A stretch of DNA of 59,734 nucleotides, counting the filler. It is 5 parts of 5 records of this genome, joined end to end, with 100 filler letters (N's around TTAATTAATTAA, not from the genome) between each part and the next. Parts side by side here need not be neighbours in the genome. Positions count along the whole stretch, not along the records: positions 1 to 8,180 come from SRR31156797_8229; 4 more parts are not named here. One strand, given 5' to 3'. Shown in pieces: positions 1 through 8,280 of the stretch. The first letter of the stretch is position 1, and each line of letters begins with the position of its first letter. A program made the translations under genes and the position numbers. The notes below the pieces were generated by a model that saw only the letters and a program-made list of their open reading frames with translations, was not told where the DNA came from and made no database searches.

Positions 1-146
1 ATGGTGGCCGGGGTGTCGGTTAAGATTCTGTCGCCTGTTTAGGCTATGGGGCTGTGCCGGGTTCTGTGATTGGATTTTACCGTCGGAATGGTGATGTCAT
101 CCTTTGACTGACATATCTTAATGTTTAGATAAGTTAAGGAGCAGCA

Positions 147-1757
147 GTGAAAATTAAAGAAGTACAACTGAATCGATTTAAACGATTCACAGACCTTAAG
201 TTGAGAATACCTGAAACTGCAAAACTTATAGTTCTAGTGGGCCCGAATGGTAGCGGTAAGACTTCCCTTTTTGAAGCCTTTAATCATTGGTATAAATTCA
301 AGGGTTTCAATGATCGTGGCATTCAAGATTATCTTGAAAAGAATGATGGTGATATGACTGCTCCAGATATTTGGCGACAGACCTCTCCGAAAAAAGTTGA
401 GATGGAGTTTTATCATAATCAAGAATTTAGCAAAGAACAGATAAAAGGTAAGTTTTACTTTAGGACTGCATATAGAAACGACCCTGATTTTACTGTTTCT
501 AACTTAAACAGGCAAAACAATCCAGCAGAAACAATAAGACTTCAAAATTTAATGCAGAACGATCAAACAGTTTCTGAAAATTATCAGAGACTCGTAGCAC
601 AAACTTTAGCAGGCGTTTATAGCGCATCAAATGATGCCAAGACAGTTGAGCAACTTAGAGATGAATTGGTTGGAAAAATAAAAGATTCTCTATCAAAGAT
701 ATTTGATGATCTAAATTTAAGTTCCATCGGTGATCCTTTGTCAAACGGAAGTTTTTATTTTGAAAAAGGGACTGCTAAAGACTTCCATTATAAAAATCTA
801 TCAGCCGGAGAGAAGTCAGTATTCGACTTAGTCCTTGATATGATTATCAAATCGAGTTTCTATTCAGATGCAGTTTTTTGTATTGATGAACCAGAAGCAC
901 ATATGCATACAAGGCTGCAGTCAAAAGTTCTTAGAGAGCTTAATAGCTTAACCCCAGATAATTCCCAGCTTTGGATTTCGACGCATTCGATTGGGATGTT
1001 AAAAGAAGCGGAGGATATCGAAGGAGAAAACCCTGGTACGGTGGTGTTTTTAGATTTCGATAATAGAGATTTTGATTTGGCAGAGGTGATACAGCCAACT
1101 ATAATAAGTAGAGCTATTTGGGATCGTTTTTTTGATTTAGCTTTTGCTGATTTTTCAAAGCTAATCTCACCTCAAAAAATTGTATTTTGTGAAGGAACAA
1201 GCCAAGGAAGAAAATACAAAGACTTTGACGCTTTAGTTTATGGAAAAATACTTGGAGAAAAGCATCATGGTGCGACTTTTGTGTCGGTCGGATCATGCTC
1301 AGAAATAGAAGATTTAGAAAACCAATCTGTAAAAATGATTTCAAAAATATTGAAGTCATCTGAGATTATCAAGTTTGTCGATAGAGACGATAAAAGTGAC
1401 GTTGAGGTAGATGAGCTTTTACAAAAAGGTATTAAGACGTCAGGCCGAAGACACATTGAATGCTATCTGCTCGATGATGAGATTATTGAAAAACTATGTT
1501 CAAATGTGGGTAAAGATGAATTTACTGAACAATGCTTACAGGCAAAGACCGCAGCTATTCAAAATAGTGTAGATAGAGGAAATCCGAAGGACGATATTAA
1601 GTCTGCTAGCGGGGAATTATTCACTCAGCTAAAACGAATTCTCAACTTGATGCAATGTGGCAACAATAAATGTGCATTTTTAAGAGATACTATGGCGCCA
1701 TTAGTAACTGAAGAAACTAAAGTATTCGAGGAAATTGAAAAAGAAATATTTGGTTAG
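147..1757 (+). CDS. ABC-type ATPase fused to a C-terminal TOPRIM-like domain (OLD / fused PARIS-like ATP-dependent nuclease)
   Basis: Walker A GPNGSGKT, signature LSAGEK, Walker B CIDEPEAHMH, H-loop STHS. C-terminal FCEG...D, DRD and RRHIECYLLD motifs are typical of OLD/DUF4435-type TOPRIM. GTG start preceded by AAGGAG. Confidence 0.8.
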   Translation: MKIKEVQLNRFKRFTDLKLRIPETAKLIVLVGPNGSGKTSLFEAFNHWYKFKGFNDRGIQDYLEKNDGDMTAPDIWRQTSPKKVEMEFYHNQEFSKEQIKGKFYFRTAYRNDPDFTVSNLNRQNNPAETIRLQNLMQNDQTVSENYQRLVAQTLAGVYSASNDAKTVEQLRDELVGKIKDSLSKIFDDLNLSSIGDPLSNGSFYFEKGTAKDFHYKNLSAGEKSVFDLVLDMIIKSSFYSDAVFCIDEPEAHMHTRLQSKVLRELNSLTPDNSQLWISTHSIGMLKEAEDIEGENPGTVVFLDFDNRDFDLAEVIQPTIISRAIWDRFFDLAFADFSKLISPQKIVFCEGTSQGRKYKDFDALVYGKILGEKHHGATFVSVGSCSEIEDLENQSVKMISKILKSSEIIKFVDRDDKSDVEVDELLQKGIKTSGRRHIECYLLDDEIIEKLCSNVGKDEFTEQCLQAKTAAIQNSVDRGNPKDDIKSASGELFTQLKRILNLMQCGNNKCAFLRDTMAPLVTEETKVFEEIEKEIFG

Positions 1758-1791
1758 CCGAAATTACTCATATAACAAAGCTTTTGGGGAC

Positions 1792-1814
1792 TTCGGGGGA
1801 TAGCCTACAGAATT
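1792..1814 (+). repeat. Copy 1 of an imperfect 23-bp intergenic motif (TTCgGGGGAtAGcctACagAATT)
   Basis: 16/23 positions identical to 8088-8110; both copies lie just downstream of a stop codon. Confidence 0.4.
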
Positions 1815-1962
1815 AAAACAAGTGAAATACTGACGGATAAACCGCTGATTTCAATAGTTCTACGAGGAATTCATAAAAATTGTTTTATCGGAAAATAAAT
1901 ATATTTCAGTTGTCGGCACATGACAATATCTTTTTTTTTACGATGGGGGTGTGTGGCCAAAT

Positions 1963-4900
1963 ATGAGCCTTGCAGGAATACGTTCAAACAGAGGTGATAC
2001 CTACCAGCGATCTGTGGCGCTCTTTTTAATTGTTGAGATGCTCTTAAATGAGAACATAGCTGGACTTCAAGTTGACGCTATTGCATTACCAGACGAAAAT
2101 TATCTGATTTATGGAGATGATATTGTAATTATTTTTAGTAATGGCAAAAAACGTTTTCTTCAGGCAAAAGTGAACCAAAGCAAATATCAGTACTGGAATC
2201 TAACAGATTCTGTATTAAAAAAAGAATTAATCTCTGCCAAAAATCAACTTATTGCTGACCCGTCTTGTGATTTTTATTTCTATTCTCGGACCCCTTTTAG
2301 TGTCCTGCAACGTCTTATAGAAGAAGTTAATTTATATCCCAATCACCAATCTTTTCTTAGGGTGGCACCACAAGGACAGAAAGATACATTGGAAAGCCTT
2401 GTTGAGCTTTGGGAAAATGATCAACCGGCTGCATTTAATTTAGTAAAGCGGATCGGTATAGGAGACCATCATTCTTCAGAGGAATGGCAAAGATATAGTC
2501 TTAGATTACTAAAAACAAATTTTTCCCAATCAGAAACAGCATTTGAGCTAATTTATAATTATGTAGATCGGCAACACAGTAAATTGGGTGATCCCTGTTT
2601 TGTAATAAATCGAAAAGATGTGCTTGATATGCTTAAAAAGCATGGCATCTATAATGCTCTTGGATTTAATGAAAAAATACTTGTAGAAAAATTTCGAGCA
2701 TTTTCATTACAAGGGCGTCAATGGGTTCGAACTATAGGCGGTTCCATTATCAATAGACCTGAACTTGAACTTTTAAAACAGGCTGTTAGCACAAATATGC
2801 CTTCTGTGCTTTTGGAAGACGTTGCAGGTGGTGGGAAGACGTGTATTTTGCTTGATTTGATGGATTACTTAGATAAACAAGATGACATTGCAACCTTATT
2901 TATAAAAGGAGATCTTTTTGCTTCAATTAATTCACTTAGTGAGTTGAGTGAATTTGGTTTGCCTGAAGATTTTCTTGCACAGTGTGCGCACTTAGCCGGC
3001 ATACGCCAGTTGATTATCATTTTAGACTCATTGGATGTTTTGGCAGTTGGGCGAAGCCACAAGAGTCTTCAAAGCTTTTTGGGATTAATCGCAAATCTAA
3101 ACAATGTTCCGAATATTACAATTATTGCGGCCAGCCGTTCATTCGACGCGAAATATGATCCTTTATTGAGGGAAATGTCATGGGCTGAGGTTGTTACGGT
3201 TAAACCTCTTTCTTACAAAGACGATATTTCACCCTTGTTAACTGAGTGGGGTATCAATCCTGATAATATAAATAGCACATTACAAAGTTTATTATTAGTT
3301 CCTCAAAATTTGCGATTGTTTTATGTTTTGATCCAAAAAGGGATTACTTTATCAGATATTGAAGAGCACGATCTTTATGATTTATACATACAGGAATTGA
3401 TAGAAAAAGATCAAAACTTGGGTATTGAAATTGTAAATGAACTTCAAAATATTGCAGTAGATTTATTAAAGATACGCAGTTATAAATTCCCAAAAAATTT
3501 ACTGAAGGTCAGCGCCCAAGAGTTGCAACGTTTACAAAGTCAAGAAATAATTACCGAAATTAGCCCGCACCAATTAATGTTCAGCCATCAAACTTTGGCT
3601 GATGCTCTTCGAATTCGGCAGGCCCAGAAAAATGGAGTTGATTTACATCAATTTGTAATTTCTCAGCCTCAATTACCATTTATTAGACCTGTCGTAAGGT
3701 CTTTTATACTATCCCTTAGGTTGGTTCAGCCAGATCAATTTACAAAACAAATGCGCAAATTCTTTTTGGAAAAGAGTATTTCAATGCATTTAAAAAGACT
3801 CTCGGTTGAAACATTAGCTGAGATGGTTCCAAGAGAAGACGACCTTTTGATAGTGTCTGTACTTTCATCAAGATTACCAACACTATTTAGTCGATTTCTT
3901 GATCGGGCTAGTAGCGAAGAATGGTTTTCGTTATTGCATAATAGCTGGTTGGTAAAAGTTAATATTTCTACTATAGAAAATATAACTGGTAGCGTCCTAC
4001 GTTACGTCTCACGATTTTTAGATGGTCACGAAGAGGCTTTAATTAGCCTATGGAATCGTGCTTTTGATGAACAATGGCTTCCTGTTGACAACCTAGTTTG
4101 GCTAATCTCATCTGATTTAAAGAAGCTTAAAAGGTGGGATATTGACGGGGTTACCCTCCTTCTGAAAAAGCTCCTTGGGGCTAAAGAAAAAAGCGGAGGG
4201 GATGTCGGCCATACAATTTGCAAATATATCGAAGCAACGGATTGCGGTGATGAGTTATTGTGGCAATTCATTATCCGAGATTCTGAATCTATTGCTAATA
4301 TAAAGCGTGGCAGAGAATTAAAACTCAATTGCCGAAAACATGATCTTTTGAATGAAGATTTTTTAGTAGAGCGGTTGAAATCCTCTGATATTTTGTTTGG
4401 CAATGTAATTGATTATTTATTACAGTTTTCTCAGAACTTTAGTCCTGAAGAGGGAAGTTATCCCTTCGAATCAAATTTGTTGGATTCAACATCCTATAAT
4501 AGACGTCATACAGATTGGGATACGAGACATCAAGACTCAATTCATGAATTTTTAGATGCTATTGAGTCTGCGATGAAATTCAGAGCGACAACTAATGATC
4601 CTTGTTGGAAAGGATATGAATCTCGTTTAAGAAATAGTCGTGAATTGGGTGTGCAGTATTTATTATGTGAGACCTATTTAACAAATATTCCAGACTATTT
4701 AGAAGGGATAGAGCAACAACTCATAAATAAAAAACTATTAAGGTATGGTCACTTAGAATATGAGTTGGGGATGTTGGCAGCTAAAGCCTACCCTCTACTA
4801 TCCTATAAGGTGCAAGAAGATCATCAGTGGCTATTATTACAACTATATGATGATGTAAAAGACAAATATGACTGGACAGAAAGGGCAATTTACAAACATT

Positions 4901-6492
4901 TGGTTTGGATTCCAGCGATATTTAGGCTTGTTGAGTTAAAAGGTTTCTATGAAAAATGTGAAAAAAAATATGGAACAGCTATTCCTAATCCATCCATAAG
5001 AGCAAGAGGTGGATTTGTGAAATCTCCTGTTTCCTCCGAGAAATTGATTGAGCTAAGTCATGGAACATTGATTAAATTATTTAATCATTATGATTCATAC
5101 GATAAATGGGAGGATAGTCTATCTGGCCCACTAATAGGTGGCCGTGAAAGTTTAGAAAGCTCATTAAGAACTGCTGCGTCATGGGTACCAATGCATTTTA
5201 TCCCCTTGGTGCCAATGATAGCTGATGCTGCGTTATCAATGAGTTTTGTTTATTCAATCATTGATGGATTAAGCCTGCACCTGCGATGTCGTTTTGGCAA
5301 CCTTAGTAGTTCAGATTGGAAGTCTATTGAACCTTTGCCTGATGGGAGAGCATTAGCAGTAACCGTTCTTGATTTGGTGGAGCGATTTTGTAGAAATGAT
5401 GACCGTAGGTATACCACATCCCAAGCTGTTGAAGCTTGTAGCGAAATTCTTTATGATAACCTGTCTCTGGAGAGAATTTATTTTCAGCTTTGGTTGTTGG
5501 GCTTGCACAAAAATCCAGAGCCGGAGAAAGATGAAGATTCTCGTGATTTAGTCGGCAGTGGCATTAATTCTATCCGGGGCATTGCTGCCGAATCCGTATT
5601 AAAAATATGTAATAATTTATTGGAGAATCAAAAGCCAATAACAGAGGAATTAAGGCAATTACTTTTTAGGTACGCAAAAGACCCTTCAATGGTTGTGAGG
5701 GCAACTTTCCTCAGAAGATTTCCATATTTTCATAGCAAGGAGGTTGAGTTAGGTTGGGAACTATTTATGCTGTTAGTTCAAAACTATAAGCCGAGATTAT
5801 TAAAACATTTAGAACAGATCTTATATTATCAGTATCATGCAAATTTTGATCACGTGAAACCTTATTTGGATTTGTTAAAGACCGTTGATGACGAAAAGAG
5901 TTCTGCTGCTTGGGGTCGGTTAGCGACCCTGTCTTTTTTGTCAGACCATATTAATGAAGAAGAATTATGGCAAGGTGTGCATGAACGCCATGAGGCTACG
6001 AGAGAAGGTATGGGGCAGGTATTCGTTGCAAATATTAATAGCTCTAAAAGTACAAGGGCCTGCATAAGAGGCTTATCCCGGTTAATGGAAGATGATGAAC
6101 TGAAATCAGTTTTTTCTGAATTTGAACGCTCTCTTGAGGATAAGGAACAATTAAGTTTTGTACCCTTTTCCTTGGTTAAACTATTTATCACTAATAGTCC
6201 TGCAGAACATGTTAGAGAAATTGATGGAGTATTTCACTGGCTAGAACAAAACGTTCTGGTGACGCCAAATAAAGTACTTGAGATATTGGAAGGCATTATA
6301 AATAAATTATCTGATTTATCAGGGCCGATTTATTTTCATAGGCCTGATGCCTTGATTGCAACCTTAAAATTGCTTCTTCAGGAAGCGGATTTGTCAGACG
6401 AAAATGAATTTATAAATAAAGTGTTATACGTTCAAGATTGGTTTCTTGATCAAGGTGTTAAGGAATTAGAAACTCTGCTTGATACGGCGTGA
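1963..6492 (+). CDS. STAND/NACHT-like NTPase with an N-terminal Cap4-like PD-(D/E)xK nuclease and a long helical C-terminal sensor region (Avs/NLR-like antiphage protein)
   Basis: N-terminal RGDTYQ...DDIVI...FLQAK nuclease motifs, Walker A variant EDVAGGGKT, Walker B IIILDSLD, then ASR, PQNL and FSHQT STAND motifs. About 900 aa of predicted helical C-terminus. ATG at 1963 preferred over GTG at 1951. Confidence 0.75.
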   Translation: MSLAGIRSNRGDTYQRSVALFLIVEMLLNENIAGLQVDAIALPDENYLIYGDDIVIIFSNGKKRFLQAKVNQSKYQYWNLTDSVLKKELISAKNQLIADPSCDFYFYSRTPFSVLQRLIEEVNLYPNHQSFLRVAPQGQKDTLESLVELWENDQPAAFNLVKRIGIGDHHSSEEWQRYSLRLLKTNFSQSETAFELIYNYVDRQHSKLGDPCFVINRKDVLDMLKKHGIYNALGFNEKILVEKFRAFSLQGRQWVRTIGGSIINRPELELLKQAVSTNMPSVLLEDVAGGGKTCILLDLMDYLDKQDDIATLFIKGDLFASINSLSELSEFGLPEDFLAQCAHLAGIRQLIIILDSLDVLAVGRSHKSLQSFLGLIANLNNVPNITIIAASRSFDAKYDPLLREMSWAEVVTVKPLSYKDDISPLLTEWGINPDNINSTLQSLLLVPQNLRLFYVLIQKGITLSDIEEHDLYDLYIQELIEKDQNLGIEIVNELQNIAVDLLKIRSYKFPKNLLKVSAQELQRLQSQEIITEISPHQLMFSHQTLADALRIRQAQKNGVDLHQFVISQPQLPFIRPVVRSFILSLRLVQPDQFTKQMRKFFLEKSISMHLKRLSVETLAEMVPREDDLLIVSVLSSRLPTLFSRFLDRASSEEWFSLLHNSWLVKVNISTIENITGSVLRYVSRFLDGHEEALISLWNRAFDEQWLPVDNLVWLISSDLKKLKRWDIDGVTLLLKKLLGAKEKSGGDVGHTICKYIEATDCGDELLWQFIIRDSESIANIKRGRELKLNCRKHDLLNEDFLVERLKSSDILFGNVIDYLLQFSQNFSPEEGSYPFESNLLDSTSYNRRHTDWDTRHQDSIHEFLDAIESAMKFRATTNDPCWKGYESRLRNSRELGVQYLLCETYLTNIPDYLEGIEQQLINKKLLRYGHLEYELGMLAAKAYPLLSYKVQEDHQWLLLQLYDDVKDKYDWTERAIYKHLVWIPAIFRLVELKGFYEKCEKKYGTAIPNPSIRARGGFVKSPVSSEKLIELSHGTLIKLFNHYDSYDKWEDSLSGPLIGGRESLESSLRTAASWVPMHFIPLVPMIADAALSMSFVYSIIDGLSLHLRCRFGNLSSSDWKSIEPLPDGRALAVTVLDLVERFCRNDDRRYTTSQAVEACSEILYDNLSLERIYFQLWLLGLHKNPEPEKDEDSRDLVGSGINSIRGIAAESVLKICNNLLENQKPITEELRQLLFRYAKDPSMVVRATFLRRFPYFHSKEVELGWELFMLLVQNYKPRLLKHLEQILYYQYHANFDHVKPYLDLLKTVDDEKSSAAWGRLATLSFLSDHINEEELWQGVHERHEATREGMGQVFVANINSSKSTRACIRGLSRLMEDDELKSVFSEFERSLEDKEQLSFVPFSLVKLFITNSPAEHVREIDGVFHWLEQNVLVTPNKVLEILEGIINKLSDLSGPIYFHRPDALIATLKLLLQEADLSDENEFINKVLYVQDWFLDQGVKELETLLDTA

Positions 6493-6652
6493 TCATTTTG
6501 GATTTGCACTTTATGTAAATTGATCCAGCGGCTTTGTTCAACAATAAAAATCAAACGGGTGAGTCGGTTATTTGGGGTGTTAAAGCAAGAATGATTGTTT
6601 AGCTCATTAAAAATAATTGAATAATTCAAACAGCAAAATAAAGGTACCCAGT

Positions 6653-7069
6653 ATGCAACCATGGGTTATTCACGCTGTGATTGCTATGGTAAGTATCACA
6701 GCTATGATGGTTCTATTCAAAGAACTTACCGATAGAAATATATCGACAGAAATCATAAATTTATATTTTTTTTTATTTACAACCGTTGCCATATTCTTTT
6801 TTGTTTTAATTAGAAAAACGAGTTTACAATTTCCAGTTGATAGTACTTGGCATTTTATTGCATTGGCTGCTATTGCAGTAAGTTATAACTATTATAATAT
6901 ATCTGCCATCAAACATGCTCCCAATGCAGGCTATGCAGAAGCAATCGTTTCATTCAGGTTCGTTGCTTTGGCAATTATAATGACAATGTTTCATGGTGCA
7001 GAGCTAACTATCAAAAAAATAATTGGTATGATTTTAGTATTTATTGGTATTATCTTAGTAGGAATATAA
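6653..7069 (+). CDS. Single-domain EamA/DMT-family small membrane transporter
   Basis: About 5 hydrophobic segments and an AIKHAPNAGY...GAELTIKKIIGMILVFIGIILV ending typical of EamA. Likely ATG start at 6653. Confidence 0.7.
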   Translation: MQPWVIHAVIAMVSITAMMVLFKELTDRNISTEIINLYFFLFTTVAIFFFVLIRKTSLQFPVDSTWHFIALAAIAVSYNYYNISAIKHAPNAGYAEAIVSFRFVALAIIMTMFHGAELTIKKIIGMILVFIGIILVGI

Positions 7070-7318
7070 TTATCTTTAAGGATGATAAAAAATATGCGGT
7101 TTAAAAAAAATGAAAACTTGAGAACTAAGATTATTTAAGGGTTTCCCCGATTGATTACTCCTGTACTTTGTGCACAAAACTACGTCACAACAAAAATAAT
7201 AATGAGGAGGTATATCAAAAAGCAAACTCATTTATAGATAGCAGATCCAATTCTACATCAGAAATTAAGAACTCATACACCATATTAATTTTTTTTATAC
7301 ACTGAAAAGGATAATCGG

Positions 7319-7804
7319 ATGATATCGATAGATAAACTAGGATTCGGAACTTCAAAAGATCTCAGTAGAGTCACAGGTGGTGAAGGTAAAGTTTATGAAC
7401 GGACAATTGAATTTGGTAGGACTGTAATCAATATAGAGAATATTGGTTCGTTAGTACTGATCGATGAAAAAAGAAATCATGCTCTAACAATTGTCGCAAT
7501 TATAATTGGATTATTTGGTTTTTCAGTTTTTTCTCTCAGTTCGTTATTCGGTATTGTGGTATTAGCCATCGGGCTCGCATTGGGTGCTTGGAATATTTTG
7601 AAAAAAATGGAAGTATATCTTTCAATAGGTACTTGTGACGGTAAATCTACAATAATAGTTTCAAAAAATCGTTTATTCCTGAAGAAGGTCAGAACATTAA
7701 TACGAAAAAAAATTGATACTAAAAGTAAAAGCTCTGCGACGATTAATATAGAAAACAGTGCTATTGCAATAGGTGATTCGTCGCACGCGGTTAGCAAAAA
7801 TTAA
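7319..7804 (+). CDS. Two-TM membrane protein (DUF6232-like) with a C-terminal INIENSAIAIGDSSHA motif
   Basis: Beta-rich N-terminus, a TM hairpin, then YLSIGTCDG...SKN..FLKKV..I resembling DUF6232 proteins; the short tail is shared with the next gene. Confidence 0.55.
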   Translation: MISIDKLGFGTSKDLSRVTGGEGKVYERTIEFGRTVINIENIGSLVLIDEKRNHALTIVAIIIGLFGFSVFSLSSLFGIVVLAIGLALGAWNILKKMEVYLSIGTCDGKSTIIVSKNRLFLKKVRTLIRKKIDTKSKSSATINIENSAIAIGDSSHAVSKN

Positions 7805-7818
7805 AAGAAAGAAAACAC

Positions 7819-8070
7819 ATGTCCGACATAAAAATAAAAAATAGTGCTATTGCTATTGGGAAAGGAGCAAAAGCGTCTAACAATTTGAATTCATCAAACG
7901 AGGCGGATATTTTAAATACAGATCAAGCATCTATAATAAAGTCCAGTTACAAGACTAAAAGGGTAAAAAACCCCATCTCTAAAATTATGGAAACCTCTTT
8001 GCAGATTCCAGTTGGTATAATCGCAAGCATCATAGCCGCATTACTCTTAAGCTATTGTGGTCTACAATAA
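7819..8070 (+). CDS. 83-aa protein with an N-terminal IKIKNSAIAIGKGAKA motif and a C-terminal TM helix
   Basis: ORF starts 14 nt after the upstream stop; hydrophobic C-terminus IPVGIIASIIAALLLSYCG; motif shared with the upstream gene. Confidence 0.6.
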   Translation: MSDIKIKNSAIAIGKGAKASNNLNSSNEADILNTDQASIIKSSYKTKRVKNPISKIMETSLQIPVGIIASIIAALLLSYCGLQ

Positions 8071-8087
8071 AGTTTCAATTCGCAGAA

Positions 8088-8110
8088 TTCCGGGGACAGT
8101 TCACTTAATT
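8088..8110 (+). repeat. Copy 2 of the imperfect 23-bp intergenic motif (TTCcGGGGAcAGttcACttAATT)
   Basis: 16/23 identity to 1792-1814. Confidence 0.4.
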
Positions 8111-8180
8111 CCAACAACGAACATTCTATGGACAAGCCGCAGATGTCCAAAGTTACAAATCAAATTAAATTATGAAAATC

Positions 8181-8280
8181 NNNNNNNNNNNNNNNNNNNN
8201 NNNNNNNNNNNNNNNNNNNNNNNNTTAATTAATTAANNNNNNNNNNNNNNNNNNNNNNNNNNNNNNNNNNNNNNNNNNNN
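8181..8280. other. Artificial contig linker (N44-TTAATTAATTAA-N44)
   Basis: N runs flank a 12-mer with stops in all six frames; the same structure occurs four times. Confidence 0.98.

What the first reader, a model, noticed from the sequence alone, without database searches (positions are those of the whole stretch)
7319..8070. Adjacent membrane proteins share an I-x-I-x-NSAIAIG-x4-A motif at facing termini: candidate new amyloid-signalling (prion-like) defence pair
Seen: gene A (161 aa, TM hairpin) ends ...TINIENSAIAIGDSSHAVSKN, and gene B (83 aa, C-terminal TM) begins MSDIKIKNSAIAIGKGAKASNN. The seven identical residues are encoded with four synonymous differences (aac agt gct att gca ata ggt at 7754-7774 vs aat agt gct att gct att ggg at 7840-7860), suggesting selection on the peptide rather than recent DNA duplication. 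Established: a short beta-arch motif at an effector C-terminus matched by the N-terminus of a neighbouring gene is the hallmark of amyloid signalling (HET-S/NWD2, RHIM, bacterial BASS motifs, Bab/Agp). Inference: B templates polymerisation of A, whose TM hairpin disrupts the membrane. I know of no DUF6232-like effector or tiny membrane-anchored activator described in such systems. The motif also resembles the YadA-head NSVAIG beta-roll repeat, so a non-amyloid homotypic beta-stack is an alternative.
Basis: partly seen in the sequence, partly recalled or inferred. Interest (0 to 1): 0.85.

Follow-up and report, generated by a model that had tools for sequence, protein, structure and literature searches.

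The report
Matched beta-motif membrane gene pair
Two neighbouring bacterial genes, a membrane protein and a small partner, carry the same short strand-forming peptide at their facing ends; the arrangement is conserved and co-evolving in distant bacteria and resembles prion-like immune signalling built from parts not described for it.

Summary
Gene A (7319-7804, 161 aa, Pfam DUF6232) ends with, and gene B (7819-8070, 83 aa, no family) begins with, an I-x-I-x-NSAIAIG-x4-A peptide. It occurs nowhere else in the six-frame window.

The pairing is a conserved module. In 9 of 9 loci where a short A homologue has a full tail, the next collinear gene (-22 to +21 nt away) starts with the matching motif. 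Own pairs match better than shuffled pairs (3 of 200,000 permutations reach the observed score). Identical residues often use different codons, and both window genes carry the same 4-residue-shorter version.

A is the constant part. AlphaFold2 gives a PH-like fold split by a transmembrane hairpin. B varies: tail-anchored peptides, 119-121 aa helical proteins, TIR-domain proteins in two loci. Fused forms (A + motif + TM + extra domains) also exist.

My best reading (0.45) is an NLR-independent, amyloid-signalling-like adaptor motif that co-assembles a membrane platform (A) with a swappable effector (B). The main rival (0.3) is finite beta-augmentation onto the PH-like domain. Fibril formation, binding and phenotype are untested, and the complex prediction never ran. 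No paper in the searched library mentions DUF6232.

The parts
7319..7804 (+). Gene A: 161-aa DUF6232 protein. It is a PH-like fold split by a TM hairpin, plus a C-terminal beta motif.
   Evidence: ORF. Pfam PF19744 E 3.8e-8, residues 25-131. AlphaFold2 mean pLDDT 88.4, pTM 0.75. There are 71 representative homologues at E <= 1e-3.
7361..7465 (+). A residues 15-49: five beta strands, the N-terminal half of the PH-like fold.
   Evidence: DSSP on the model. VIA-align matches to PH/PTB/FERM-F3 domains span model residues 17-137, Z 6.5-8.2.
7475..7609 (+). A residues 53-97: transmembrane helical hairpin inserted in the fold.
   Evidence: Kyte-Doolittle segment 53-97. Model helices 55-70 and 75-94.
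7613..7720 (+). A residues 99-134: two strands and the C-terminal helix, completing the PH-like fold.
7742..7789 (+). A tail motif, residues 142-157 (INIENSAIAIGDSSHA).
   Evidence: The tail is conserved in the subfamily alignments A1/A2. Model strands 140-143 and 148-151 have block pLDDT 92; residues 151-160 have 63. The tail lies outside the Pfam DUF6232 match.
7805..7818 (.). 14-nt spacer between A and B; the two are probably co-transcribed.
   Evidence: No terminator-like site lies between the genes, and promoter-like sites are not above shuffles. Spacing in the nine loci is -22 to +21 nt.
7819..8070 (+). Gene B: 83-aa tail-anchored protein with the matching motif at its N-terminus.
   Evidence: ORF. 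No Pfam, PADLOC or NCBIfam family. Homologues sit in the same position in other loci, and a profile search finds 8 proteins.
7828..7875 (+). B head motif, residues 4-19 (IKIKNSAIAIGKGAKA).
   Evidence: It is aligned with the other heads and tails in A6.
7984..8067 (+). B residues 56-83: C-terminal hydrophobic (TM) segment.
   Evidence: Kyte-Doolittle segment 56-83. A G-I-x-[GA]-S-I-[IL]-A segment is conserved at the C-terminus of four B proteins.

Best explanation
A and B form a self-contained two-gene module. About 17-25 residues at A's C-terminus and at B's N-terminus are a homotypic adaptor. The motif is a hydrophobic-alternating strand, an N/S/G turn, a G-h-A-h-G strand and then x4-A (h = hydrophobic).

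A is the constant part. It is a PH-like domain held on the cytoplasmic face of the membrane by an inserted TM hairpin. B is the swappable part. It can be a tail-anchored TM peptide (window, L006), a 119-121 aa helical protein ending in a hydrophobic helix (L001, L004), other helical bodies (L002, L007), or a TIR-domain protein (L003, L017).

I propose that the two motif copies stack in register as rungs of a shared cross-beta (amyloid-like, beta-solenoid-type) assembly. Clustering or a change of state of A at the membrane would then nucleate polymerisation of B. That would bring its effector part together: TIR domains become active, or TM helices form a lesion. The outcome would be a cell-death or abortive-infection type response.

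Shown here: conservation of the pairing, within-pair co-variation, the variable partners, the fused forms, and the predicted fold.
Inferred: direct binding (I put it at about 0.8), the cross-beta nature (about 0.4), the direction A to B, and the defence role (about 0.4).
For: (1) Conservation. I examined window, L001-L007 and L017 (the same place as L020, L022 and L026; L008-L012, L021 and L023-L025 are re-fetches of the L001-L004 places and were dropped). All 9 of 9 short A homologues with a full tail are followed, on the same strand and -22 to +21 nt away, by a gene whose first 20-30 residues repeat the tail. The three homologues whose tails stop after the first hairpin (L014-L016) show no motif downstream.

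(2) Co-variation. The summed local BLOSUM62 score of own tail/head pairs is 586, against 358 +/- 42 for permuted partners; 3 of 200,000 permutations reach it. Own partner ranks first in 7 of 9 rows and 6 of 9 columns. Only the window pair lacks four residues, and it lacks them in both genes.

(3) This is not recent gene conversion. Identical residues use different codons in 6/12 (window) to 14/16 (L006) cases, and nucleotide identity is 50-78%.

(4) Exclusivity. A motif profile finds only A tails, B heads and long-A motifs in the window plus all loci. The same holds in the whole genomes G001-G004; the best other hit has E 0.58.

(5) Partners include TIR_2 (E 3.2e-18 in L003; 3.4e-19 in L017/L020). 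The two TIR partners are 48% identical, with a conserved motif head.

(6) All-in-one forms exist. Of 71 representatives, 20 are 290-1210 aa with A + motif + linker + TM + further domains: TonB_C in 3, SH3_3 in 2, LprI in 1, MFS_1 in 1.

(7) Two representatives that I saw have tandem motif copies (P0027, P0036).

(8) Tail composition compared with the body of the same proteins: G 17.5 vs 10.6%, N 8.6 vs 3.8%, K 1.9 vs 4.6%, L 3.8 vs 11.6%, P 1.4%. This points the same way as the bias reported for BASS motifs (section 9 of the Dyrka et al. preprint).

(9) The genomic signature matches published amyloid-signalling pairs: small collinear spacing or overlap, fused equivalents, pseudo-repeats.
Against: No experiment or model shows fibrils, binding or toxicity, and the complex prediction was never run.

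AlphaFold2 gives the first hairpin of the tail high confidence (block pLDDT 92) within a compact model. That fits a tail docked on the PH-like domain rather than a free amyloid-forming tail.

In P0027 the second tandem motif copy is modelled without strands at pLDDT 62-73, so no two-rung stack was predicted.

No NLR/STAND or other large sensor carries the motif. That departs from every described amyloid-signalling system.

The fused forms carry envelope-type domains (TonB_C, SH3_3, LprI, MFS_1), not immune effectors.

Flanks in L001, L002, L004, L006 and L007 are housekeeping or varied genes. PADLOC has no model matching A or B. No homologue was found in the plasmid, phage or viral-contig collections.

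The nine pairs are not phylogenetically independent: L001/L005 are close, and so are L003/L017.
Confidence: 0.45

Rival explanations
1. Finite beta-augmentation, not amyloid. The motif would be a peptide ligand of A's own PH-like domain. A's tail docks in cis, or on the next A protomer. B's head mimics it and binds the same edge or groove in trans. The result is a defined A:B complex or a regulated tail-displacement switch, with no templated polymerisation.
For: AlphaFold2 models of A and of P0027 place the first tail hairpin at block pLDDT 92 in a compact model. Three VIA-align rows extend into the tail (model ranges to 154-161, 80-89 aligned residues). The top structural matches include PTB and FERM-F3 domains solved with bound NPxY/F peptides (4wj7, 5u1m, 4tkn). 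Such domains bind peptides by strand addition (established knowledge, recalled). Tail-truncated homologues keep the first hairpin and lose only the distal G-h-A-h-G-x4-A part together with the partner (L014-L016). A matched indel in tail and head is expected if both fit one site.
Against: I could not inspect model coordinates, so the docking is inferred from confidence values only. This reading does not explain why fused forms keep the motif, why some carry tandem copies, or the G/N-rich composition. TIR partners usually need higher-order assembly to be active (established knowledge, recalled).
Confidence: 0.3
2. The pair could be a split envelope protein with no immune role. A + motif + TM would be an inner-membrane scaffold. 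Its fused relatives reach into the periplasm, and the A/B pair is that protein split in two, with a duplicated strand motif holding the halves together constitutively.
For: 20 of 71 representatives are fused forms with the order A, motif, Pro-rich linker, one TM, then TonB_C/SH3_3/LprI/MFS_1. The window B is just motif + linker + TM. Neighbouring genes in five loci are housekeeping or varied. There are no PADLOC hits.
Against: TIR_2 partners in two loci are hard to fit to a scaffold role. The family is rare and patchy: 2 of 401 genomes sampled from an order (one of them the centre genome, the other a weak tail-less hit), 7 of 148 in one family, and 2 of 401 in a class sample. That distribution is typical of accessory genes. 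In the window the pair lies 2.5 kb from AriA/PtuA-like and LmuA-like genes.
Confidence: 0.15
3. B could be a leaderless membrane-active peptide (bacteriocin-like), with A a PH-domain membrane protein serving its export or immunity.
For: PH-domain and bPH_2 membrane proteins are encoded in leaderless-bacteriocin clusters and have been implicated in transport (passages of PMC11580447 seen, including its citation of Perez-Ramos et al. 2021, which I did not read). B is small, hydrophobic at one end and has no signal peptide.
Against: There is no bacteriocin, ABC-exporter or regulator context in the loci examined. This reading does not explain the matched motif or the TIR and 113-121 aa helical partners.
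Confidence: 0.03
4. The shared peptide could be a YadA-head-type beta-roll repeat or a chance or recent local duplication, with no functional pairing.
For: The DNA of the two window copies is 81% identical over 32 nt.
Against: No YadA/Hep_Hag family hit at E <= 1 for A or B. The motif is a single copy per protein, predicted cytoplasmic. The pairing is conserved in 9 of 9 loci, with many synonymous differences and significant own-pair matching.
Confidence: 0.02

Closest known systems
Bab/Agp antiphage system of E. coli ECOR25 (BASS11 motif; Ibarlosa et al., bioRxiv 10.1101/2024.11.07.622273; abstract, section 4 and Discussion read)
   Same: Two adjacent genes share a motif of about 20 aa, at the C-terminus of a small membrane-targeting protein and the N-terminus of its neighbour. 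The paper reports that motif also on TIR and other immune domains. The system is a minimal two-gene module.
   Different: The bearer of the N-terminal motif there is a 1094-aa sensor (TPR, GreA/B-C, PIN). Here it is a 78-291 aa protein with no sensor domain. The C-terminal bearer there is a helical Bell-type domain. Here it is a PH-like DUF6232 with a TM hairpin. I could not compare the motif sequences because the alignments are in figures. No function has been shown for the present pair.
Bell-domain/NLR pairs with BASS1-10 (Dyrka et al., bioRxiv 10.1101/2020.01.06.895854; outline and sections 7 and 9 read) and fungal HET-S/NWD2 (recalled)
   Same: Matching C-terminal/N-terminal motifs in collinear genes with tiny spacing or overlap. 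Motifs are about 25 aa, G/N-rich and K/P/L-poor. Pseudo-repeats occur on one side, and all-in-one fused equivalents exist.
   Different: There is no NACHT/NB-ARC partner and no Bell/HeLo domain. The hosts named in the records (Janthinobacterium, Chromobacterium, Burkholderiales and Hyphomonadaceae MAGs) are not the filamentous Actinobacteria and Cyanobacteria to which BASS pairs were reported to be restricted.
Bacterial PH (bPH) membrane proteins such as YdbS/YdbT types (Xu et al. 2010, seen only as a reference; otherwise recalled)
   Same: Small bacterial proteins that combine a TM hairpin with a PH-like beta sandwich and a C-terminal helix.
   Different: In A the hairpin is inserted inside the fold, between strands 5 and 6, not placed before it. 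No bPH Pfam family matched at E <= 1. bPH proteins are not known to carry a tail matched to a neighbour's head.
The 'EAD principle' of conflict systems (Kaur, Burroughs, Iyer and Aravind, eLife 2021, PMC8195603; only passages found seen)
   Same: The same small adaptor is present on two products of neighbouring genes, coupling an effector to its partner. The effectors are swappable.
   Different: EADs are folded, mostly helical Death-like domains attached to NTPase-centred systems. Here the adaptor is a roughly 20-aa strand motif and no NTPase carries it.
YadA-head / Hep_Hag left-handed beta-roll repeats (recalled)
   Same: A local N-S-x-A-I-G-like sequence.
   Different: No family hit. The motif is a single copy, predicted cytoplasmic and terminal, and paired between two genes.

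Membership tests
Amyloid-signalling motif pairs (HRAM, BASS1-11) | A short (about 20-25 aa) motif shared by the C-terminus of one protein and the N-terminus of the product of the adjacent collinear gene | tested here: met
   9 of 9 loci with a full-tail short A; spacing -22 to +21 nt. Own-pair matching is reached by 3 of 200,000 permutations.
Amyloid-signalling motif pairs (HRAM, BASS1-11) | The bearer of the N-terminal motif is an NLR/STAND or another large sensor protein | tested here: not met
   Partners are 78-291 aa, with no Pfam family or with TIR_2 only. No other motif-bearing ORF was found in the window, the flanks or four whole genomes.
Amyloid-signalling motif pairs (HRAM, BASS1-11) | The bearer of the C-terminal motif is a Bell/HeLo-type helical membrane-targeting domain (or another known effector domain) | tested here: not met
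   A is DUF6232 with a predicted PH-like fold plus a TM hairpin.
Amyloid-signalling motif pairs (HRAM, BASS1-11) | Composition enriched in G, N, Q, V, I and depleted in K, P, L; beta propensity | tested here: inconclusive
   Tails against bodies of the 32 sequences of A2: G, N (and A) enriched; K and L depleted; P low; Q slightly up; V and I not enriched. The model shows strands in the tail. ArchCandy was not available.
Amyloid-signalling motif pairs (HRAM, BASS1-11) | Fused all-in-one equivalents, and pseudo-repeats on one side | tested here: met
   20 of 71 representatives are fused long forms. Tandem copies were seen in P0027 and P0036.
Amyloid-signalling motif pairs (HRAM, BASS1-11) | The motif forms amyloid fibrils and propagates as a prion; the partner's motif seeds the other | not testable with these tools
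   Needs peptides, ThT/EM and cell assays. The complex prediction was never queued.
DUF6232 (PF19744) | Match to the family HMM above the gathering score | tested here: met
   34.2 bits against 27.4, E 3.8e-8, residues 25-131. Atlas neighbours are DUF6232 clusters at 0.96-0.97.
PH-like superfold / bacterial PH domains | Seven-stranded beta sandwich capped by a C-terminal helix | tested here: met
   DSSP order is five strands, (hairpin), two strands, helix 118-134. Most of the 50 VIA-align rows are PH, PTB, FERM-F3 or GRAM-type domains; a few match only the TM hairpin. Values are Z 6.5-8.2, rmsd about 2-3 A, 70-78 residues aligned. Z is middling, and Foldseek found nothing at E <= 1e-3.
PH-like superfold / bacterial PH domains | Sequence membership of a Pfam bPH family | tested here: not met
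   No bPH family among hits at E <= 1.
YadA-head / Hep_Hag repeats | Family HMM match and tandem arrays of the repeat | tested here: not met
   No such hit at E <= 1 for A or B. One copy per protein.
TIR-domain effectors (partners in L003 and L017 only) | TIR HMM match; catalytic glutamate after the conserved W | tested here: met
   TIR_2 E 3.2e-18 and 3.4e-19, above the cut-off. An S-D-W-V-x-G-E stretch is invariant in both. Reading that E as the catalytic residue rests on recall, not on a test.
Known anti-phage systems (PADLOC-DB 2.0) | Match of A or B to any model | tested here: not met
   0 families at E <= 0.1 for A and for B.

The most novel reading that the evidence does not exclude
This could be an NLR-independent prion-like signalling module of bacteria. 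A PH-like protein inserted in the inner membrane would act as sensor and nucleator. Its C-terminal beta-arch motif would template cross-beta polymerisation of whichever effector carries the matching N-terminal motif (a TIR NADase, a tail-anchored or helical membrane-lesion protein). That would give a minimal two-gene, membrane-triggered cell-suicide switch with pair-specific motif 'codes'.
Probability: 0.33. Interest if true: 0.9.

Novelty: new variant of a known kind. Interest (0 to 1): 0.78.

Why it matters
If the motif works as proposed, amyloid-type signalling in bacteria would no longer be confined to NLR/Bell pairs of filamentous species and to the single Bab/Agp system. It would extend to a third architecture with a membrane-embedded PH-like partner and no NTPase.

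It would give a very small, experimentally tractable model: two genes, about 750 bp. The model has natural specificity variants, since pairs have co-varying motifs. It also has natural fused controls and natural effector swaps (TM peptide, helical protein, TIR). Together these make it directly testable how a 20-residue motif encodes partner choice.

If the rival (beta-augmentation on a PH-like domain) is right, this would be a new example of a bacterial PH-like domain with an identified peptide ligand encoded next door. It would also give DUF6232 its first functional handle.

Tried and rejected
The first design was A 100-161 with B 1-45. After the fold result I changed it to full A with B 1-45. 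There is therefore no result on A-B binding.

(2) Foldseek against the PDB gave no match at E <= 1e-3. The PDB sequence search with profile A2 gave 0 hits at E <= 1.

(3) AlphaFold2 of P0027 was meant as a natural one-chain proxy for tail-on-head stacking. The second motif copy was modelled without strands at pLDDT 62-73. This is uninformative rather than negative.

(4) Searches for more loci gave little. Alignment A2 was too diverse for the search for related loci. Plasmids, phages and viral contigs gave no match. Genome samples gave few: 2 of 401, 7 of 148, 2 of 401. The 'longer' search returned one protein.

(5) P0061 (4819 aa) and P0069 (3539 aa) have no DUF6232 match and carry unrelated domains. 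I treated them as spurious and dropped them.

(6) Rfam found nothing in 1-8180. Promoter and terminator scans were not above shuffles.

(7) Atlas search with a 121-aa B (P0079) gave unnamed clusters at 0.92 and TCAD2 at 0.87. These are leads only.

(8) The first permutation run picked a wrong reading frame for the L017 head. It was replaced.

(9) I considered a link to the upstream LmuA-like/STAND-like 1513-aa protein acting as the 'NLR'. I rejected it because that protein carries no motif and is absent from the other loci.

(11) Supplementary tables of the two amyloid-signalling papers, which list motifs and domain partners, could not be seen. They might mention DUF6232-type proteins.
Full report
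**What is in the window.**
The 59,734-base window is five contigs joined by N-linkers. The finding lies on the first one (1-8180), which has about 31-40% G+C. I did not determine the organism, and no whole genome is held.

Gene A (7319-7804, 161 aa) and gene B (7819-8070, 83 aa) are on the plus strand, 14 nt apart. A ends ...ATINIENSAIAIGDSSHAVSKN. B begins MSDIKIKNSAIAIGKGAKASNN.

The seven shared residues NSAIAIG are encoded with four synonymous differences (read by eye). Over the 19 aligned positions, 12 residues are identical and 6 of those use different codons. The DNA copies are 81% identical over 32 nt.

A pattern scan of all six frames finds the motif only at these two facing termini.

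**What A and B are.**
A matches Pfam DUF6232 above the gathering score (E 3.8e-8, residues 25-131). The tail lies outside the family model. B matches nothing in Pfam, PADLOC or NCBIfam.

An AlphaFold2 model of A, built on a 32-sequence alignment, has mean pLDDT 88.4 and pTM 0.75. Its elements in order:
- five strands (residues 15-49);
- two long hydrophobic helices (55-70, 75-94);
- two strands (99-115);
- a helix (118-134);
- two short tail strands (140-143, 148-151) at block pLDDT 92;
- the last ten residues, falling to pLDDT 63.

Foldseek found nothing at E <= 1e-3. An all-against-representatives VIA-align search returned a list made up mostly of PH, PTB, FERM-F3 and GRAM-type domains. Values were Z 6.5-8.2, rmsd about 2-3 A, and 70-78 residues aligned across model residues 17-137. 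The list includes a solved 'split PH' domain. The Z-scores are middling, but the topology and the uniformity of the list make a PH-like fold split by a TM hairpin the best description.

Hydropathy puts A's hairpin at 53-97 and a C-terminal hydrophobic segment in B at 56-83. On this topology both motifs face the cytoplasm next to the membrane. That placement is an inference.

**The tail is a subfamily feature.**
The near-length search found 7 homologues among 208 candidates. The exhaustive representative search found 71 proteins at E <= 1e-3, of which 43 were at <= 1e-10.

In alignments A1 and A2 the region after the invariant K-I-D keeps a common pattern: h-[ND]-h-x-x-x-x-(L/I)-x-G-x-h-A-h-G-x4-A-x-G. 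A2 holds 32 short forms that I chose from the better hits under about 210 aa.

The window protein differs from its relatives by lacking four residues in the middle of this pattern.

**The pairing is conserved.**
Pattern scans with A1 returned four loci in species genomes: Janthinobacterium sp., Chromobacterium piscinae, a Burkholderiales MAG and a Hyphomonadaceae MAG. They returned three metagenome contigs. A family-level genome search added more.

Repeated fetches of the same places (L008-L012, L020-L026) were dropped. That leaves nine loci where a short A homologue has a full tail: window, L001-L007 and L017.

In all nine, the next gene on the same strand begins with a copy of that locus's tail motif. 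It starts between 22 nt before and 21 nt after A's stop. The B ORFs of L002 and L005 are cut by contig ends.

Three Hyphomonadaceae-family homologues (L014-L016) have tails that end after the first hairpin. No motif is visible downstream of them. In L015 and L016 the next ORF starts like a signal peptide. L014's contig ends about 145 nt after the stop.

Weak DUF6232 hits without the tail were not analysed further. L013 is a 120-aa protein ending at the helix, L018 a 249-aa fused form, L019 is at a contig end, and L027 was not examined.

**The two copies co-vary.**
With tails and heads extracted by script, the summed own-pair local score is 586, against 358 +/- 42 for permuted partners. It is reached by 3 of 200,000 permutations. 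The own partner is the best match in 7 of 9 rows and 6 of 9 columns.

The clearest single case is the window itself. Only this pair has the four-residue-shorter motif, and it has it in both genes.

If the tail and head had diverged independently after one ancient duplication, own pairs would not be more alike than foreign pairs. So there is either selection for matching or repeated homogenisation. Homogenisation at the DNA level is unlikely to be recent. Identical residues use different codons in 4 of 9 (L007) to 14 of 16 (L006) cases, and nucleotide identity is 50-78%.

Two caveats apply. Some pairs are close relatives of each other (L001/L005, L003/L017). Nine pairs is also a small sample.

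**The motif is exclusive to the module.**
A profile of tails and heads, run over all stop-to-stop ORFs of the window and every locus, hits only A tails, B heads and the motifs of long A forms.

A 13-row motif profile was run over five whole genomes. In four it finds only those places at E <= 1e-5, and the best other hit has E 0.58. It misses the divergent pair of the fifth genome, which shows the limit of its sensitivity.

No NLR-like or other large protein carrying the motif was seen. The 1513-aa LmuA-like, P-loop protein two genes upstream in the window has no motif.

**A is constant and B is variable.**
Partners fall into four kinds:
- tail-anchored peptides of 78-83 aa (window, L006);
- 119-121 aa proteins with a helical middle and a C-terminal G-x-A-G-S-I-L-A-S-A...Y-Y-G-W segment (L001, L004 and relatives; the profile search found 8 proteins in all, every name given by a source being 'hypothetical');
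- other helical bodies (L002, L007);
- TIR_2 proteins in two Hyphomonadaceae-family genomes (E 3.2e-18 and 3.4e-19), 48% identical to each other with a conserved head.

In both TIR loci a long DUF6232 gene follows the TIR gene. In L003 the TIR head is closer to the long form's motif (14 of 15 residues, by eye) than to the short form's (12 of 15).

**Fused forms.**
Twenty of the 71 representatives are 290-1210 aa. Two giant proteins without a DUF6232 match were dropped as spurious. The fused forms have the order A, motif, often a Pro-rich linker, one TM, then further domains. These are TonB_C in three, SH3_3 in two, LprI in one and MFS_1 in one; the rest are unassigned.

Three forms of about 292 aa, and L018, carry a helical C-terminal part that resembles by eye the body of the L007 partner.

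So A + motif + partner exists both as one chain and as two chains bridged by a duplicated motif. P0027 and P0036 have tandem motif copies.

**Distribution and context.**
The family is rare and patchy.
- 2 of 401 genomes sampled from the order of the Janthinobacterium genome. One is that genome itself; the other is a weak, tail-less hit.
- 7 of 148 in the family of the Hyphomonadaceae MAG.
- 2 of 401 in its class sample, one being the centre genome.
- No match in the plasmid, phage or viral-contig collections.

Apart from B, no neighbour is conserved. Flanks in five loci encode pseudopilin-type proteins, an M24 peptidase, a LysR regulator, GFA, GNAT and GST proteins, a TPR protein, a GHMP kinase, an outer-membrane efflux protein, a racemase and an HNH_5 protein.

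In the window the upstream genes look defence-like. There is an AriA/PtuA-like ABC ATPase (PADLOC 7.1e-29) and the LmuA-like large protein (1.8e-8). Between them and A lies an EamA-type membrane protein.

**How it most likely works.**
The genomic signature is the one used to discover amyloid-signalling motifs. It consists of a short motif at the C-terminus of one protein and the N-terminus of the adjacent collinear gene's product, minimal spacing or overlap, fused 'all-in-one' relatives, pseudo-repeats, and G/N-rich, K/L/P-poor composition. These criteria come from sections 7 and 9 of the Dyrka et al. preprint and section 4 and the Discussion of the Ibarlosa et al. preprint.

In-register cross-beta stacking requires rungs of equal length. 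This fits the matched deletion in the window pair.

The constant/variable asymmetry, with TIR and small membrane proteins as alternatives, is the pattern of sensor-plus-swappable-effector defence systems (established knowledge, recalled).

I therefore read A as a membrane platform or nucleator and B as the effector, joined by templated co-assembly of the motif. I give this composite reading 0.45.

**The main rival.**
AlphaFold2 treats the first hairpin of the tail as a confident part of a compact model, in both A and P0027. Tail-truncated, partner-less homologues keep exactly that hairpin. PH, PTB and FERM-F3 domains typically bind peptides by strand addition; several of the top structural matches were solved with such peptides.

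The B head could therefore be a mimic of A's tail that docks on the PH-like domain in a finite complex (0.3).

A non-immune reading, in which the pair is a split envelope scaffold, is kept at 0.15 because of the TonB_C/SH3/LprI/MFS fusions and the housekeeping flanks.

I could not inspect model coordinates, and the complex prediction never entered the queue. The two structural readings therefore remain open.

**Comparison with what is known, and novelty.**
The pair meets the positional, spacing, fusion and pseudo-repeat features of amyloid-signalling pairs. It fails two features that all described systems share: a large sensor (NLR or Agp-type) on the N-terminal side, and a Bell/HeLo-type domain on the C-terminal side. 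So I do not file it as a BASS system. I describe it as working like one.

A is a member of DUF6232 and has a PH-like fold. It is not a sequence member of the Pfam bPH families. The YadA-head resemblance has no support.

Full-text searches for 'DUF6232' and 'PF19744' returned no paper. Two searches on amyloid signalling in bacteria returned nothing describing such a pair. A 2026 review, of which I saw passages only, lists only the NLR-associated bacterial systems. Supplementary tables could not be seen.

I rate it a new variant of a known kind, with interest 0.78.

Noticed in passing
window 147-1757 and 1951-6492: Two defence-like genes lie upstream of the pair. The first is a 536-aa ABC-type ATPase matching AriA/AriAB/PtuA models (PADLOC 7.1e-29; Pfam AAA_21 2.1e-24). 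The second is a 1513-aa protein with an LmuA-like N-terminal region (PADLOC 1.8e-8, residues 15-235), a P-loop (GGGKT) and no Pfam or NCBIfam family over the remaining roughly 1200 residues. It may be an undescribed large defence protein.
   Followed up: partly
window 8181-8280 and three further places (32665, 39194, 52137): The window is five contigs joined by two 44-N runs around TTAATTAATTAA. The locus contig ends 110 nt after gene B, so B's true downstream neighbour is unknown.
   Followed up: yes
L003 4510-6894; L020/L017 (same genome): In L003 the motif-TIR gene and the following long DUF6232 gene read as one 794-aa ORF without a stop. An Arg-rich stretch between them looks out of frame. 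In L017/L020 they are separate genes (291 and about 462 aa). The L003 reading is probably a frameshift in the MAG, or it could be a real fusion.
   Followed up: no
L003 3944-4489, 4510-4600, about 5850-5900: The TIR partner's head motif is closer to the motif of the downstream long DUF6232 (14 of 15 residues, by eye) than to that of the upstream short one (12 of 15). This suggests a three-protein assembly.
   Followed up: no
L014, L015, L016 (three genomes of the Hyphomonadaceae MAG's family): DUF6232 homologues whose tails stop after the first hairpin have no motif-bearing partner. In L015 and L016 the next ORF begins like a signal peptide.
   Followed up: partly
P0085 (64 aa) compared with L001 5103-6326: This B-family protein starts with the same ten residues as the M24 peptidase ORF that lies downstream of B in L001. 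It then continues as the C-terminal 54 residues of B, without the head motif. It looks like a deleted or rearranged locus in a relative.
   Followed up: no
window 6617-7069: A 150-aa EamA-family membrane protein (Pfam 1.6e-9), half the usual two-repeat length, lies between the large LmuA-like gene and gene A.
   Followed up: no
P0031 (1210 aa): A DUF6232 + motif N-terminus is fused to an MFS_1 transporter domain. This is an unexpected partner for either an immune or a scaffold reading.
   Followed up: no
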